64,000 nt of DNA from contig CAVPND010000052.1 in the NCBI GenBank assembly GCA_963706055.1, forward strand, positions 10,712 to 74,711, given 5' to 3'. The notes under the pieces are model-generated. The model was not told the origin of the DNA. It saw only the letters and a program-made list of their open reading frames with translations, and did no database searches. This document shows positions 42,177 through 50,149 of this stretch, piece after piece; the first letter of the stretch is position 1, and every line of letters begins with the position of its first letter. The position numbers and the translations under genes were made by a program. The DNA is from an uncultured Ignavibacteriales bacterium. Lineage in GTDB: Bacteria; Bacteroidota; Ignavibacteria; Ignavibacteriales; Ignavibacteriaceae.

Positions 42177-44120
42177 ATGAATAGATGGTTTACTATTCTA
42201 TGCACCCTGCTGTTACTACCAACGCTCCTGTTGGCACAGTCGGGAAAAATTAAAGGAAAAGTTACTGACCTTTCATCTGGAGAGCCACTTATTGGTGCCA
42301 ACGTTTTAGTTGTTGGAACATCATTAGGAGCTGCAACAGACGTAAATGGCGAGTACACTATTTTCAATGTACAAGCGGGTGTTTATGAAGTAAAATCTTC
42401 ATACATCGGCTTCCAAACAATAACAACTACAAACGTACGCGTTAATACTGACCTTACAACCACTGTAAACTTTCAGCTACCAAGCGAAGGAATATCGGTT
42501 GGCGAAGTAGTTGTTGTTTCGGAAAGACCACTAATTAACCCAAGTAACACAAACGCTATTAGAACCACTTCAAGCGATATCATCGAAGATTTGCCTGTAA
42601 GAGATTTTAATAACATTTTGGCATTAACACCCGGTGTTATCCTCCAAAATCAAAATGTTTACATAAGAGGCGGCCGTGTTGATGAGGTTGGATACTATCT
42701 TGAAGGTACAAACATTACTAATCCTGTTTTAGGTGGACGTGGTGTTAATATCGTTTCGGATGCTATTGAAGAAATCCAGGTTCAGGCTGGTGGATACACC
42801 GCTGAATATGGTGGCGCAAATGCAGGTATCGTGCGAACTCAACTTAAATCAGGTACACCTGATTTTAAATTCAGTATAGCTTATGTTACAGATAATTTAA
42901 CATTCAAAAGCAAAGACAACAGGTTTGATGGTGAAAAATCATTAGGCGCTTATCAGTATGGGTATAATGAATTTACCGGAACAATAAGCGGTCCTCTTTT
43001 TTCAGACAAAGTAAAATTCTTTGGTTTGGTCAACTCCAATTGGAAGTTAGATCAAAACCCACTGCCTTTCCCGGGTATAAATCTTGGTGTTATTACTGAT
43101 CAACAATCTACAACACCAGAAACTAATTCTATTAATTTGGTTTATCCAGCTGGTCCAACTTTTGGTGCCCAAAATCAAACCTATACAGGAACAGGTACAC
43201 TGACATTTGATTTGAATCCAATAATCGTCAGACTTACCGGTTCGTATACGGACACAAAAGGCGGTAACGGCGGCGGCGGAAATATTAACCAGTTATTAAA
43301 CCTTGGAAGAATTTCAATATTTGAAGGTTCTAACTCATCTTTTACTGCTAAGATGACACATATTTTAAGCCCCACTACTTATTATGAAATAAGCGGTGGT
43401 TATACTTATAGCTTTACCGAAAATATGGACCCATTGTTAAGAGACAATTGGGAAGTTTACGGCGATAGCGTTGCAAATGCACAAGTAGGTGCTGTATGGA
43501 ATAGAACAGCAAGAGATATCCAGAATGGAAGAGTTGGAAGATATCAAAGACCAACAACATATGACATTCTTGGATTCTTTTTCAATGCACCTAATGATAT
43601 TATAGCTGGCTATAATAAAAACAAACGAGAAGTTTTTAATTTTAACGCTGCATTTTCTACAGAAATAGATAAAATTCACCAACTAAAAATCGGTGGTGAA
43701 TTATCTATGTACACTATTAGAAGCTTTGGTTTTGCTGCAGGTAGATCAGCAGCTCAATATGCAAATGCTGTATTTACAAATAGTTTGCTGCCAAATCCAT
43801 TACCTCTTAACGATGTAATGATTGGACTAACTAATAGTTATGGTTATGATCATTTTGGTAATGAAACAAGTACTGACTTTAGTGCTGGCGCTGGTGTTGA
43901 TGATATAGGACTTTTAGCTCCTAAAAAACCTCTGTTTGCAGGCGCATATGTTGAAGATAAAATTACATACAAAGATCTTATCTTAAATTTTGGTTTAAGA
44001 TTTGATTACTTTGACGTTGATAACTTAACCCTGATAGATCCTACACGACCAGAAACAGCAATTGATTTTGGTACTAACAAAATCAATCCAGCCGGACTTG
44101 GGAAAAACAAATTCTTTTAG
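42177..44120 (+). CDS. TonB-dependent receptor, N-terminal fragment (signal peptide, CarboxypepD_reg-like domain, plug, first part of barrel)
   Basis: 647 aa. GGAG 7 nt upstream. MNRWFTILCTLLLLPTLLLAQ; GKIKGKVTDLSSGEPLIGANVLVVGTSLGAATDVNGEYTI; plug VVVSERPLINP...DLPVRDFNNILALTPGV. Confidence 0.85.
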   Translation: MNRWFTILCTLLLLPTLLLAQSGKIKGKVTDLSSGEPLIGANVLVVGTSLGAATDVNGEYTIFNVQAGVYEVKSSYIGFQTITTTNVRVNTDLTTTVNFQLPSEGISVGEVVVVSERPLINPSNTNAIRTTSSDIIEDLPVRDFNNILALTPGVILQNQNVYIRGGRVDEVGYYLEGTNITNPVLGGRGVNIVSDAIEEIQVQAGGYTAEYGGANAGIVRTQLKSGTPDFKFSIAYVTDNLTFKSKDNRFDGEKSLGAYQYGYNEFTGTISGPLFSDKVKFFGLVNSNWKLDQNPLPFPGINLGVITDQQSTTPETNSINLVYPAGPTFGAQNQTYTGTGTLTFDLNPIIVRLTGSYTDTKGGNGGGGNINQLLNLGRISIFEGSNSSFTAKMTHILSPTTYYEISGGYTYSFTENMDPLLRDNWEVYGDSVANAQVGAVWNRTARDIQNGRVGRYQRPTTYDILGFFFNAPNDIIAGYNKNKREVFNFNAAFSTEIDKIHQLKIGGELSMYTIRSFGFAAGRSAAQYANAVFTNSLLPNPLPLNDVMIGLTNSYGYDHFGNETSTDFSAGAGVDDIGLLAPKKPLFAGAYVEDKITYKDLILNFGLRFDYFDVDNLTLIDPTRPETAIDFGTNKINPAGLGKNKFF

Positions 44121-45201
44121 TGCTGTTAGTCCCCGTCTTGGTTTCTCATTCCCAGTAACAGATCAAACTGTTTTTCATGCACAGTATGGTAAATTTGTTC
44201 AGCAATCTAGATTGCGCGATATGTACCAGGGAATTTATGGTCTTGGAACTCAATTAAGAGGCGGATTTTTCATTGCAACTCCTGTTGGGTTAGATGTAAG
44301 ACCAACAAGAACAACACAATATGAAATTGGCTTTACACAACAAATTTCTGATTTTGCATCATTTGATATCACAGGATATTATAAAGATATTCAGGATCAG
44401 GTTGAATTTGACATTCAAAGCACTGCATCTGGGTCACCATACCAATCCTATAACGTTCTAAGAAATGGAGACTTTGCTACAACAAAAGGTGTTGAGCTAT
44501 CCTTTAACATGAGAAGAGTGGAAAATATTCAGGCTAATGCCTCTATTTCCTTCCAGGATGCTCAGGGAACAGGATCAAATCCAAATTCAAAAGCCGGTAT
44601 TGTTGGCGCACCATTGGATGGTGTTACTATATTTAGACCTAATTACGTTGCCCCACTTGATTTCAATAAATCAATTACTGGTAATTTGAATATAGATTAT
44701 AGATTTGGCGCTGATAATGAATCACCTGTTCTTCGTGAACTAGGCCTTTCAGCTCTGTTTTCTTTTGACAGCGGACATCCATTTACACTTGGACAAGGAA
44801 AGGGAGACAATGCTGGTTCACTAGAGGGTGACAATAGATTTAGATCACCGATAGAAGCCTTGAACTCATCAAGTACTCCTTGGGTTAGTCAGCTTGATTT
44901 AAAGATTGATAAATCTTTTATGATTACTGATAAATTGCGTGCAAATGTTTACTTCTTTGTTATTAATCTTCTTGATGCAACAAACATCACTAATGTATTC
45001 CTAAGAACAGGAACCGCATCTGATGATGGTTATTTAACTGATCCAGGATTAGGCGGAACATTAAAGTCCTACCAAAGAGAAGAATATGAAGCAATGTACA
45101 GAGCAATTAATGTTGACTATTATCAAGCTTATCAGACAAATGTTGGCGTTTTATATGGTCCTCCACGCCAAATTCGATTTGGATTTCAATTAGAATACTA
45201 A
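44062..45201 (+). CDS. TonB-dependent receptor, C-terminal barrel fragment
   Basis: 379 aa. Joins the previous ORF if one A is removed from the A5 run 44103-44107 (..NPAGLGK|TNSFSAVSPRLGFSFPV). Ends PRQIRFGFQLEY. Confidence 0.85.
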   Translation: MILVLTKSIQPDLGKTNSFSAVSPRLGFSFPVTDQTVFHAQYGKFVQQSRLRDMYQGIYGLGTQLRGGFFIATPVGLDVRPTRTTQYEIGFTQQISDFASFDITGYYKDIQDQVEFDIQSTASGSPYQSYNVLRNGDFATTKGVELSFNMRRVENIQANASISFQDAQGTGSNPNSKAGIVGAPLDGVTIFRPNYVAPLDFNKSITGNLNIDYRFGADNESPVLRELGLSALFSFDSGHPFTLGQGKGDNAGSLEGDNRFRSPIEALNSSSTPWVSQLDLKIDKSFMITDKLRANVYFFVINLLDATNITNVFLRTGTASDDGYLTDPGLGGTLKSYQREEYEAMYRAINVDYYQAYQTNVGVLYGPPRQIRFGFQLEY

Positions 45202-45235
45202 AATTGATAGTATAAAAAAATAGGAGTTTCAAAAT

Positions 45236-49064: not shown

Positions 49065-50096
49065 ATGAAAAATATATTTAGGTCATTAATAATAGTTCTT
49101 GCCCTCCTGCTTACACTTGATGTATATGCCGGAGGAGGTAATAGAACTGGCACAGGAGGAGCCGCACAGTTGCTCATCCCTGTTGGTCCGCGCGGTATAG
49201 CCATGGGCGAAGCTAATCTTGCAGTAGCTAACGGGATCGAATCAATATTCTGGAATCCCGCTGGTGTAGCTAATTTACAAAGTTCAACTGCCGTTATGTT
49301 CTCTCATATGTCTTACATTGCTGATATAGGAGTAGAGTACGGTGCAGTTGCAACTAATTTTGAAGGCTTTGGAGTTATTTCTCTAAGTCTTAAAAGTCTT
49401 TCAATTGGAGAGATATTAGTTACAACAACTTCTGATCCAGATGGATTAGGTGGAGCAAAATTTTCTCCACAAATGTTAACTGCAGGCTTAACATATTCAC
49501 GTCAATTAACAGAAAGAATATCAGTTGGTTTAACAGCAAACCTTATTACTGAAACTCTTGGTGATGTAAGTTCTACAGGGTTAGGTTTTAATGTTGGCGT
49601 TTTATACAATACTCTTGCTGATATCAAAGGATTAAGCATCGGTATTGCAATGAAAAACATTGGACCACAGATGCAGTATGATGGTTCTGGAATGTTAGTT
49701 CTATCAGAAGTAGCAGATCAGAGTCGTGCACCTCAATACACAAAAATTGAAGCAGCAAAATTTGATTTGCCTTCTTCATTTGAGTTAGGTGTTGGATACA
49801 AAGCAATGCTTGATGAAGACAATGCAATTCAGCTTGCAGGAGTATTCTTAAATAACAACTTCTCAGAAGATGAATACAAAGTTGGAGCTGAGTATGGTTT
49901 TAATAATCAATTCTTTGCTCGATTAGGTTATCAGTTTGCACCAGATTTAGAAAGTGATCAATATTTATATGGATTAACTGCTGGAGCTGGCGTTAATGTT
50001 AACTTAGAAGGAATAATGCTAAGAGTTGATTACGCTTACCGTACAACTCAATATTTTGATGGAAACCATGTGTTTGCTCTTTCTCTCGGTTTCTAA
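49065..50096 (+). CDS. PorV/PorQ-family outer-membrane barrel protein
   Basis: GGAG 6 nt before ATG 49065 (the track ORF starts at 49020, inside the upstream gene). MKNIFRSLIIVLALLLTLDVYA; GGAAQLLIPVGPRGIAMGEANLAVANGIESIFWNPAG. Ends ..HVFALSLGF. Confidence 0.75.
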   Translation: MKNIFRSLIIVLALLLTLDVYAGGGNRTGTGGAAQLLIPVGPRGIAMGEANLAVANGIESIFWNPAGVANLQSSTAVMFSHMSYIADIGVEYGAVATNFEGFGVISLSLKSLSIGEILVTTTSDPDGLGGAKFSPQMLTAGLTYSRQLTERISVGLTANLITETLGDVSSTGLGFNVGVLYNTLADIKGLSIGIAMKNIGPQMQYDGSGMLVLSEVADQSRAPQYTKIEAAKFDLPSSFELGVGYKAMLDEDNAIQLAGVFLNNNFSEDEYKVGAEYGFNNQFFARLGYQFAPDLESDQYLYGLTAGAGVNVNLEGIMLRVDYAYRTTQYFDGNHVFALSLGF

Positions 50097-50116
50097 GAAT
50101 TAGATCTATGTTTTAT

Positions 50117-50149
50117 AATCCGTACCGAGAAAATCGGTACGGATTTTTT
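50117..50149 (+). terminator. rho-independent terminator
   Basis: aatccgtaccga-gaaaa-tcggtacggatt (12-bp perfect stem) running into a T6 tract, 21 nt after the PorV-like stop. Confidence 0.8.

What the first reader, a model, noticed from the sequence alone, without database searches (positions are those of the whole stretch)
42177..50149. Operon coupling a TonB-dependent receptor, a 1265-aa sorting-domain protein and its own PorV-like barrel
Seen in sequence:
- Three co-directional genes are separated by 34 and 31 nt, preceded by a 334-nt AT-rich leader and closed by a 12-bp-stem/T-tract terminator (50117-50149). This looks like one transcription unit.
- Gene 1 is about 1008 codons once the extra A at 44103-44107 is removed. 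It has a signal peptide, a carboxypeptidase-regulatory-like domain, a plug, and a barrel ending FGFQLEY.
- Gene 2 is a giant secreted protein ending in a sorting-domain-like segment.
- Gene 3 carries the PorV/PorQ-family signature GGAAQLLIPVGPRGIAMGEANLAVANGIESIFWNPAG.

Established knowledge: in Bacteroidota, PorV (LptO) is the outer-membrane barrel that binds the C-terminal domain of T9SS cargo. SusC-type TonB-dependent transporters work with a surface partner encoded next door.

Inference: a PorV-like barrel encoded in one operon with a SusC-like transporter and a single giant cargo is not an arrangement I know to be described. It could be a dedicated surface capture/uptake module in which the giant protein is held on the cell surface by a private PorV paralogue.
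Basis: partly seen in the sequence, partly recalled or inferred. Interest (0 to 1): 0.7.

Follow-up and report, generated by a model that had tools for sequence, protein, structure and literature searches.

The report
TonB receptor, giant protein, private PorV-like barrel
A tightly packed three-gene unit, kept intact in dozens of sampled Ignavibacteria and some related phyla, encodes an outer-membrane importer, a 1,265-residue uncharacterised surface protein and a PorV-type barrel that appears dedicated to holding that protein; I found no published description of it.

Summary
The three co-directional genes, the 34 and 31 nt gaps, the 334-nt leader and the 12-bp terminator are all as stated. 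One detail is wrong: the frameshift in gene 1 is an extra C at 44097, not an extra A.

- **Gene 1** is a plug-plus-barrel TonB-dependent receptor. It is not a SusC/RagA family member (78 bits against a cutoff of 368).
- **Gene 2** belongs to a large family with no Pfam or NCBIfam model. It has no recognisable enzyme domain. It is built from a beta-supersandwich, an FN3-like domain and further beta-sandwiches.
- **Gene 2's C-terminal domain** is homologous to type A T9SS sorting domains, carries a 9-10 residue extension, and is the best-conserved part of the protein.
- **Gene 3** is a full-length PorV/PorQ-family barrel. It falls below the equivalog cutoffs for PorV, PorQ and PorV2.

Across 79 related loci only these three genes are consistently linked, always in the same order. 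Some genomes carry diverged tandem copies, each with its own barrel. The extended tail predicts a downstream PorV-like gene in 67 of 68 cases.

The best reading is a T9SS-delivered surface partner of the transporter, anchored by a dedicated barrel through a retained sorting domain. I could not test whether a separate housekeeping PorV exists in this genome.

The parts
41843..42176 (+). 334-nt AT-rich leader with a conserved promoter-like block (about 41917-41945) and a conserved stretch of about 60 nt before the start codon
   Evidence: Alignment of eight related leaders. TTGACTTT..C...AT..TTT.GGAC is invariant, as is the segment from GATCGATC through AATCAAGGAGAGATC.TATG. No Rfam family matches. 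The promoter role is inferred.
42177..45201 (+). TonB-dependent receptor gene, 1007 aa when intact. It has a signal peptide, a CarboxypepD_reg domain, an EVVVV TonB-box-like motif, a plug and a large barrel ending FGFQLEY. In this window a 1-nt insertion interrupts it.
   Evidence: The intact 1007-aa version is on L001 and L002.
44097..44097 (+). Extra C that causes the frameshift in the receptor gene
   Evidence: Alignment with L001 and L002. The region is otherwise 99.2% identical.
45236..49033 (+). Gene for the 1265-aa secreted multidomain protein. Parts: signal peptide 1-25; beta-supersandwich about 45-500; FN3-like about 505-655; beta-sandwich modules about 670-1150; divergent type A-like sorting domain 1166-1265.
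48731..49033 (+). C-terminal sorting-domain-like segment (residues 1166-1265) with the family-specific tail ...TKILKIAIIQEQQILDRF
   Evidence: NCBIfam hits: PorZ C-terminal domain E 3e-7, and TIGR04183 at 18.4 bits against a cutoff of 23. hhalign to canonical type A domains gives 94% probability, E 1e-7. It is the most conserved region of the protein. The tail co-occurs with the PorV-like gene.
49065..50096 (+). PorV/PorQ-family outer-membrane barrel gene (343 aa, signal peptide, ends ALSLGF)
   Evidence: NF033709 at 195 bits over the full length; PF19572 E 7e-10. The only PDB relative by sequence is F. johnsoniae PorV, 6h3i_F, E 8e-10.
50117..50149 (+). Intrinsic terminator that closes the unit
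   Evidence: sequence.

Best explanation
The three genes form one operon that builds a single outer-membrane complex for capture and import of an unknown substrate, possibly a glycan.

1. The 1265-aa protein is exported by Sec.
2. It crosses the outer membrane through the type IX secretion system, guided by its type A-like C-terminal domain.
3. The domain is then not cleaved and attached to lipopolysaccharide as usual. It is kept and docks permanently on the PorV/PorQ-family barrel encoded next to it. PorZ docks on PorQ, and PorU on PorV, in the same way.
4. Anchored like this, the beta-sandwich body sits over the TonB-dependent receptor encoded upstream. It acts as the receptor's surface binding partner, the role that SusD and surface glycan-binding lipoproteins play for SusC.

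Shown here:
- the domain identities
- the strict three-gene linkage
- duplication of the cassette as a unit
- homology of the C-terminal domain to type A sorting domains, and its exceptional conservation
- the link between the extended tail and the barrel gene

Inferred:
- co-transcription
- passage through the T9SS
- retention of the C-terminal domain
- physical contact among the three proteins
- import through the receptor
- the nature of the substrate
For: **Linkage.**
- A scan of one genome per species found at least 577 relatives of the giant protein.
- In 79 loci the giant, receptor and PorV-like families are present in 79, 72 and 66 loci respectively.
- The next most frequent neighbouring family is present in 19 loci.
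- The order receptor, giant, PorV-like is constant.
- The median gap between the giant gene and the PorV-like gene is about 29 nt.

**Dedicated barrel.**
- Tandem cassettes in L006, L011, L024, L046 and L059 each have their own PorV-like gene.
- These are about 40% identical to each other in L006, L011, L024 and L059, but 76% in L046.
- Orthologues between genomes are 88-97% identical.
- Another PorV-family gene in L053, outside the trio, is at most 34% identical to any trio barrel.

**C-terminal domain.**
- It is homologous to type A sorting domains (hhalign 94%).
- It is the most conserved region of the protein: mean pairwise column identity 0.75, against 0.66 for the N-domain and 0.45 for the C-terminal body.
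- It scores better against the PorZ C-terminal domain than against the generic sorting-domain model.
- PorZ is a cargo whose domain is retained to bind PorQ (review PMC10202324).
- Giant homologues with the ...IIQEQQxLDRF-type tail have a PorV-like gene just downstream in 67 of 68 evaluable cases.
- The six intact paralogues with other tails that could evaluate have no PorV-like gene downstream.

**T9SS substrates in this organism.** Three canonical type A sorting-domain proteins lie in the same window.

**Binding rather than catalysis.**
- There is no Pfam or PDB sequence match.
- The AF2 model is all-beta (pLDDT 80).
- The N-domain model (pLDDT 87, pTM 0.90) resembles the non-catalytic supersandwich domains of GH116, GH94, GH15 and GH149 enzymes.

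**Receptor.** It has a plug, a barrel and an EVVVV motif. It is about 1000 aa long, which leaves room for large surface loops.
Against: - No experiment or complex prediction shows that the three proteins touch.
- The C-terminal domain misses the curated thresholds: TIGR04183 scores 18.4 against 23, and PF18962 gives no hit. T9SS dependence therefore rests on profile-profile homology.
- One paper reports that Ignavibacterium and Melioribacter have only SprA, PorV and Plug homologues of the Flavobacterium T9SS (PMC11705866). The secretion route in this lineage is therefore not secure.
- Structural matches for the N-domain are weak (TM 0.30-0.36, rmsd about 10 A). The glycan idea is only a lead.
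- One giant homologue with the extended tail (L005, 17542-21423) has neither a PorV-like nor a receptor neighbour.
- High conservation and near-universal presence could point to a housekeeping envelope role rather than nutrient uptake.
- In this window the receptor gene is frameshifted.
Confidence: 0.5

Rival explanations
1. The giant protein is ordinary T9SS cargo and the barrel is the general PorV. The C-terminal domain is cleaved and the protein is attached to lipopolysaccharide or released. Gene 3 is the organism's general PorV shuttle and merely happens to sit here. The receptor is only co-regulated.
For: Gene 3 is a full-length PorV/PorQ-family member. No other PorV homologue was found in the 64-kb window. 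I could not show a second PorV clade in Ignavibacteria: the top 120 relatives of the non-trio PorV from L053 include Calditrichota, Marinimicrobia and KSB1 among the few that carry a source name, and none is named as Ignavibacteria. The window contains other type A cargo that needs a shuttle.
Against: A general shuttle would not be duplicated together with each cassette and diverge to about 40% identity. It would not be absent next to paralogues that carry canonical sorting domains. A cleaved signal domain is not expected to be the most conserved part of a 1265-aa protein. It is also not expected to carry a conserved extra tail.
Confidence: 0.15
2. The complex is independent of the T9SS. The PorV-like protein acts as a FadL-type platform barrel, as BamG does for BamH. 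The sorting-domain-like Ig module and tail serve only as a docking module. The complex may have a structural or assembly role at the outer membrane.
For: PorV-family and FadL-family barrels serve as platforms for surface proteins in Bacteroidota BAM (PMC12578637). Gene 3 gives a weak BamG hit (E 8e-9). T9SS core genes are reported missing from Ignavibacterium and Melioribacter by BLAST. The C-terminal domain is below the curated sorting-domain thresholds.
Against: The BamG score of 35 bits is far below the cutoff of 250, while the PorV-family score is 195 bits. The C-terminal domain is clearly homologous to canonical type A domains carried by paralogues of the same protein. No alternative route is apparent for moving a 130-kDa folded protein across the outer membrane. 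Canonical type A cargo is abundant in the same genome.
Confidence: 0.15
3. The cassette builds a cell-surface coat or adhesin rather than an uptake system. The giant protein would be a major surface-layer or adhesion protein. The receptor-like barrel would serve mainly as a second anchor.
For: The protein is very widely and strongly conserved, at 54-96% identity across the best 120 homologues, and is present in several FCB phyla. It is made only of beta-sandwich, FN3-like and cohesin-like modules, as many adhesins are. Orphan paralogues exist without a receptor.
Against: The receptor keeps its plug domain and a TonB-box-like motif, and is retained intact in nearly all cassettes. That is not expected for a passive anchor. 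Diverged tandem cassettes in one genome resemble substrate-specialised uptake loci.
Confidence: 0.12
4. The giant protein and its barrel are this lineage's counterpart of the T9SS attachment complex (PorZ-PorQ or PorU-PorV). They would handle surface glycan or lipopolysaccharide for cargo attachment.
For: The C-terminal domain scores best against that of PorZ. The barrel scores slightly higher for PorQ than for PorV (90.6 against 86.1 bits). The N-domain has a carbohydrate-binding-type fold.
Against: The body shows no similarity to PorZ beta-propellers or to the PorU C25-like peptidase. Machinery components are not expected in multiple diverged copies per genome or as orphan paralogues. The invariant linkage to a TonB-dependent receptor is left unexplained.
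Confidence: 0.05

Closest known systems
PorZ-PorQ and PorU-PorV pairs of the T9SS attachment complex (Porphyromonas gingivalis)
   Same: A secreted protein keeps its C-terminal sorting domain and uses it to dock on a PorV-family barrel (PMC10202324). The giant protein's C-terminal domain scores best against that of PorZ, and the barrel belongs to the PorV/PorQ family.
   Different: The body of the protein is unrelated to PorZ or PorU. The barrel is below both equivalog cutoffs. The pair is fused into an operon with a TonB-dependent receptor. The cassette occurs in multiple diverged copies.
Type B sorting-domain cargo with adjacent cognate PorP/SprF-like barrels (for example SprB-SprF in Flavobacterium johnsoniae)
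   Same: Cargo and its dedicated barrel are encoded side by side. The barrel is thought to be specific for that cargo (PMC10202324).
   Different: Here the domain is type A-like, not type B. The barrel is PorV/PorQ family: the PorP/SprF model TIGR03519 scores 22.6 bits against a cutoff of 90.55. A receptor is also part of the unit.
SusC/SusD-type transporter-partner pairs and utilisomes of Bacteroidota
   Same: A large TonB-dependent barrel with an N-terminal carboxypeptidase-regulatory-like domain is encoded next to a surface-exposed partner. Several paralogous cassettes can occur per genome.
   Different: The receptor fails the SusC/RagA model (78 against 368 bits). The partner is not SusD-like and is not a lipoprotein (no lipobox cysteine). 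Its proposed anchor is a barrel rather than a lipid.
BamG-BamH of the Bacteroidota BAM complex
   Same: A 14-stranded FadL/PorV-like barrel serves as the attachment platform for a surface protein and sits against a larger barrel (PMC12578637).
   Different: The BamG model scores only 35 bits against a cutoff of 250. The partner here is a sorting-domain protein, not a lipoprotein. The neighbouring barrel is a TonB-dependent receptor, not BamA.

Membership tests
TonB-dependent transporter (generic) | Plug domain (PF07715) followed by a TonB-dependent beta-barrel (PF00593) | tested here: met
   Plug 34.9 bits (cutoff 23.9); barrel 62.1 bits (cutoff 27). The version on L001 is intact.
TonB-dependent transporter (generic) | TonB box before the plug, and energy-dependent transport | tested here: inconclusive
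   An EVVVVSERP motif lies between the N-terminal domain and the plug, read by eye only. Transport cannot be tested here.
SusC/RagA family (TIGR04056) | Full-length match at or above 368.25 bits | tested here: not met
   78 bits, covering residues 24-159 only.
SusC/RagA family (TIGR04056) | Adjacent SusD/RagB-like lipoprotein gene | tested here: not met
   The downstream gene is the 1265-aa protein. It has no SusD match and no lipobox.
PorV/PorQ family (NF033709) | Full-length match at or above 90 bits | tested here: met
   195.4 bits; residues 33-342 align to model positions 4-325 of 326.
T9SS PorV proper (NF033710 equivalog) | Score at or above 250 bits | tested here: not met
   86.1 bits. 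The match to F. johnsoniae PorV 6h3i_F is only E 8e-10.
T9SS PorQ (NF033711) and PorV2 (NF052325) equivalogs | Score at or above 220 bits (PorQ) or 325 bits (PorV2) | tested here: not met
   90.6 and 67.6 bits.
T9SS type A sorting domain (TIGR04183 / PF18962) | HMM match above the curated cutoff | tested here: not met
   TIGR04183 scores 18.4 bits against 23. PF18962 gives no hit.
T9SS type A sorting domain (TIGR04183 / PF18962) | Homology to bona fide type A domains | tested here: met
   hhalign of 16 giant-type domains against 13 canonical domains from paralogues gives 94% probability, E 1e-7, over 70 aligned columns.
T9SS type A sorting domain (TIGR04183 / PF18962) | Secretion depends on the T9SS, and the domain is processed by PorU | not testable with these tools
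   Needs mutants and proteomics.
PorP/SprF family (TIGR03519) | Score at or above 90.55 bits | tested here: not met
   22.6 bits.
BamG (NF053685) | Score at or above 250 bits | tested here: not met
   35 bits.

The most novel reading that the evidence does not exclude
This would be a previously unrecognised way of equipping a TonB-dependent transporter with its surface partner, widespread in Ignavibacteria and neighbouring FCB phyla. The partner would be delivered by the T9SS instead of being a lipoprotein. It would be clamped to the membrane by a cassette-specific PorV-type barrel that recognises a specialised, uncleaved sorting domain with a conserved C-terminal tail. That would define a third class of sorting domain with a cognate barrel, alongside type A with PorV and type B with PorP/SprF. 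It would also tie secretion directly to nutrient import.
Probability: 0.4. Interest if true: 0.8.

Novelty: new variant of a known kind. Interest (0 to 1): 0.68.

Why it matters
- **It joins two paradigms normally treated apart.** These are TonB-dependent transporters with surface partners, and T9SS cargo held by cognate PorV-family barrels. A reviewer's suggestion that cognate barrels protect sorting domains from cleavage becomes testable on a natural, highly conserved pair.
- **It gives context to a large uncharacterised family.** The family has more than 5,000 clusters at 50% identity and no Pfam or NCBIfam model.
- **It identifies a sequence mark that predicts the barrel partner.** The mark is the extended ...IIQEQQxLDRF tail.
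- **It points to a core envelope complex.** Ignavibacteria are abundant in wastewater, sediments and hot springs, and their surface biology is almost unstudied.

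Tried and rejected
- **Known enzyme.** Rejected. There is no Pfam hit even at E 10 and no NCBIfam hit outside the C-terminal domain. A PDB profile search gave only noise. Foldseek on the whole model returned only FN3-like, cohesin-like and Ig-like modules.
- **SusC-type receptor.** Rejected on the NCBIfam criterion.
- **Chance adjacency.** Rejected by the synteny survey.
- **Extra A in the A-run.** Corrected to an extra C at 44097.
- **Other barrels after orphan paralogues.** The genes downstream of the orphans in L063, L032 and L005 are a solute-binding/transglycosylase fusion, a rhomboid, an amidase and an AMP-binding enzyme. None is a barrel.
- **Search for a housekeeping PorV clade in Ignavibacteria.** I used the non-trio PorV-like gene of L053 as query. 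It returned Calditrichota, Marinimicrobia and KSB1 relatives, and none named as Ignavibacteria. This is unresolved.
- **Annotating the rest of the window by exact-protein look-up.** This failed for two upstream genes.
- **Riboswitch or other RNA family in the leader.** None found.
- **Literature.** Six full-text searches for the arrangement found no description. One search returned three papers and nine, none describing the arrangement; one search returned one paper, which I did not open; the other three searches returned nothing. A seventh served only to find T9SS reports on Ignavibacterium and Melioribacter. The library is incomplete, so absence there is not proof.
- **Not run.** I did not predict the structure of the C-terminal domain with its tail, or of the PorV-like barrel.

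Full report
**1. Observation**

- ORFs lie at 42177-44120 and 44062-45201 (one gene split by a frameshift), 45236-49033 and 49065-50096.
- The gaps are 34 and 31 nt. Each gene is preceded by a GGAG-type ribosome-binding site.
- The upstream gene ends at 41842, which leaves a 334-nt leader.
- The terminator at 50117-50145 has 12 pairs, a 5-nt loop and a T-tract. No terminator-like site falls at the two internal junctions.

Two metagenome contigs are 99.2% identical to the window (L001, from a 334-kb contig, and L002). They carry the same locus with an intact 1007-aa receptor. Aligning them shows the frameshift is an extra C at 44097. It is not an extra A, because the run of 5 A is the same in all three sequences. 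Either repair gives the same protein. I cannot tell whether the insertion is a real strain-specific pseudogene or an assembly error.

**2. The three proteins**

*Gene 1, the receptor.*
- It has a signal peptide and a carboxypeptidase-regulatory-like domain (E 1e-20).
- An EVVVV motif lies where a TonB box is expected.
- It has a plug (E 2e-8) and a TonB-dependent barrel (E 1e-16).
- The intact protein matches the SusC/RagA model only over residues 24-159, at 78 bits against a cutoff of 368.
- It is therefore a large TonB-dependent receptor but not a SusC/RagA member. No SusD-like gene follows it.

*Gene 2, the giant protein.*
- It has a type I signal peptide and no lipobox.
- Nothing in Pfam matches, even at E 10. 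A PDB profile search gave nothing above noise.
- An AF2 model of residues 26-1165 (pLDDT 80) is an all-beta chain of domains.
- Whole-chain Foldseek finds only FN3-like, cohesin-like and Ig-like modules.
- The N-terminal domain, residues 45-500, was modelled alone (pLDDT 87, pTM 0.90).
- It matches the non-catalytic beta-supersandwich (galactose-mutarotase-like) domains of GH116, GH94, GH15 and GH149 enzymes. Probability is near 1 but TM is only 0.30-0.36.
- This is a carbohydrate-binding type of fold. It is a lead, not a proven function.

*Size of the giant protein's family.*
- The word-indexed search returned 1397 hits. The best 120 are all full-length at 54-96% identity and come mostly from Ignavibacteria.
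- The exhaustive search found 5175 clusters at 50% identity with E at or below 1e-3.
- Many of these share only the first 680 residues or so (N-domain plus FN3-like domain) and have different C-terminal halves.

*Gene 3, the barrel.*
- It matches the PorV/PorQ family model over its full length (195 bits, cutoff 90).
- It is far below the equivalog cutoffs:

| Model | Score (bits) | Cutoff (bits) |
|---|---|---|
| PorV | 86 | 250 |
| PorQ | 91 | 220 |
| PorV2 | 68 | 325 |
| BamG | 35 | 250 |
| PorP/SprF | 23 | 91 |

- Its only solved relative by sequence is F. johnsoniae PorV, at E 8e-10.

**3. The C-terminal domain of the giant protein**

- The curated sorting-domain model misses threshold (TIGR04183, 18.4 against 23 bits). 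The C-terminal domain of the PorZ model matches better (E 3e-7; E 3e-10 for the Calditrichota homologue).
- I compared a profile of 16 such domains with a profile of 13 canonical type A domains taken from paralogues of the same protein.
- That comparison gives 94% probability and E 1e-7.
- The giant-type domain has an insertion after the FPNPYY motif. It also runs 9-10 residues past the point where canonical domains end: ...KILKIAII-QEQQILDRF against ...KKMLLLK.
- The domain is the most conserved region of the whole protein. Mean pairwise column identity is 0.75, against 0.66 for the N-domain and 0.45 for the C-terminal body.
- That is not what one expects of a signal that is cut off and discarded.

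**4. Comparative genomics**

I examined 78 of these loci. They come from:
- Ignavibacteria
- Melioribacteraceae
- Calditrichota
- Cloacimonadota
- MAGs labelled 'Bacteroidetes bacterium'

*Order and linkage.*
- The order receptor, giant, PorV-like on one strand holds in essentially every locus with enough flank.
- All-against-all clustering of the flanking ORFs shows only three families present in most of the 79 clustered loci: giant 79, receptor 72 and PorV-like 66.
- The next most frequent family is in 19 loci.
- The median gap between the giant gene and the PorV-like gene is about 29 nt.

*Tandem cassettes.*
- L006, L011, L024, L046 and L059 carry two cassettes in tandem.
- In L006, L011, L024 and L059 the two PorV-like proteins of one genome are about 40% identical.
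- In L046 they are 76% identical, so that duplication is more recent.
- Orthologues between genomes are 88-97% identical.
- In most of these genomes the cassette therefore duplicated and diverged as a unit.

*Tail type predicts the barrel.*
- Giant homologues ending in the ...IIQEQQxLDRF-type tail have a PorV-like gene immediately downstream in 67 of 68 evaluable cases.
- None of the six intact homologues with other tails that could evaluate has one.
- Those six are L015, which ends in a canonical ...KSILLK, and five copies in L032, L047 and L063 ending ...QGETVIGKF or ...QGIPINNFSK.
- The two copies in L078 also lack a PorV-like or receptor neighbour, but they match the giant protein only over its first 702 residues.
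- The genes after the L063 and L032 orphans are unrelated housekeeping genes.
- The raw Fisher p is 3e-9. It overstates the case because the loci are phylogenetically related.
- The single exception is a second copy in L005, which keeps the tail but has no partners.

**5. Is the barrel private?**

- The duplication pattern and the tail correlation both say the barrel belongs to the cassette.
- In Calditrichota locus L053 a second PorV/PorQ-family gene lies just upstream of the cassette. It sits next to a subtilisin that carries a canonical type A domain.
- It is at most 34% identical to any cassette barrel. At least that genome therefore has a PorV-family member outside the cassette.
- Relatives of that gene are named as Calditrichota, Marinimicrobia and KSB1. 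None in the top 120 is named as Ignavibacteria.
- I could not scan the window's own genome. Whether it has a separate housekeeping PorV remains open.
- The window does encode three proteins with canonical type A domains, at 24843-26957 (minus strand), 36540-38978 and 39031-39756. The organism therefore has type A cargo. No T9SS machinery gene turned up among the window ORFs I scanned.
- One paper reports only SprA, PorV and Plug homologues in Ignavibacterium and Melioribacter, using BLAST with Flavobacterium queries (PMC11705866).

**6. Mechanism**

The best-supported reading has four steps.
1. The giant protein is secreted by Sec.
2. It passes through the T9SS.
3. It keeps its specialised C-terminal domain and docks through it on the cassette's own PorV-type barrel.
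4. It then serves as the surface binding partner of the cassette's TonB-dependent receptor.

The docking step has a precedent. PorZ keeps its domain to bind PorQ, and PorU keeps its domain bound to PorV. A review proposes that cognate PorV-like barrels protect the domain from cleavage (PMC10202324). BamG-BamH shows that FadL/PorV-like barrels can serve as platforms for surface proteins beside a larger barrel (PMC12578637).

Every step after the gene-level facts is inference. The rivals are set out separately:
- ordinary cargo with a general PorV
- a platform complex independent of the T9SS
- a surface coat or adhesin
- an analogue of the attachment complex

**7. Novelty**

Six full-text searches found no description of a receptor, sorting-domain protein and PorV-like cassette. 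A seventh search served only to find T9SS reports on Ignavibacterium and Melioribacter. The components are known kinds. What is new is:
- the fixed combination of the three genes
- the specialised C-terminal domain
- the breadth of conservation

I rate it a new variant of a known kind, with interest 0.68.

Noticed in passing
window 39031-41842: Three genes lie directly upstream of the cassette. They encode a 241-aa protein with a canonical type A sorting domain, an AhpC/TSA-type thioredoxin-fold protein (168 aa), and a 513-aa DUF6029 protein with a signal peptide. They recur in the same order upstream of the cassette in 18-19 of 79 loci. This may be a second unit pairing a sorting-domain protein with an outer-membrane protein. 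The function of DUF6029 is unknown.
   Followed up: partly
window 35523-38978: Two adjacent Omp28-like genes. One carries a PEGA domain. The other (812 aa) has an Omp28-like region, a weak DUF4159 match and a type A sorting domain. Weak hits to the 'Omp28-related selenoprotein' model also appear.
   Followed up: no
window 41917-41945 and 42115-42176: The leader contains an invariant block, TTGACTTT..C...AT..TTT.GGAC, and a stretch of about 60 nt before the ATG that is almost unchanged in eight species whose coding sequences are 66-86% identical. These may be a promoter and a translation or regulatory element. No Rfam match was found.
   Followed up: partly
window 45236-50096 compared with L001: Between the window and the 99.2%-identical contig L001, the giant gene body has 63 nucleotide differences, giving 10 amino-acid changes. 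The receptor gene has 34 differences. The sorting-domain segment has none and the PorV-like gene has 1. This suggests uneven divergence or recombination within the cassette.
   Followed up: partly
L053 1146-6588 (Calditrichota): A PorV/PorQ-family gene lies outside the trio. It is followed by a 1093-aa subtilisin-like protease with a canonical type A sorting domain and preceded by a 325-aa protein with a faint PorU C-terminal match. All three lie directly upstream of the cassette. This may be another pairing of cargo with a dedicated barrel.
   Followed up: partly
L005 17542-21423; L032 2594-10437; L063 502-4275; L047; L015; L078: These are paralogues of the giant protein with no receptor or barrel next to them. 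Their endings are of three kinds: a canonical type A ending, a third tail type (...QGETVIGKF or ...QGIPINNFSK), or, in L005, the extended tail. How they are anchored is unknown.
   Followed up: partly
window 1-4300: GC content is 0.40-0.43 here, against about 0.33 for the rest of the window. The region holds two FG-GAP repeat proteins. It may be horizontally acquired.
   Followed up: no
window 8527-14479 (minus strand): A 945-aa TPR-CHAT protein, and a 597-aa protein with a lamin-tail domain, a chitobiase C-terminal domain and a CotH kinase domain.
   Followed up: no
window 32146-34470 (minus strand): A family B DNA polymerase with an exonuclease domain (774 aa).
   Followed up: no
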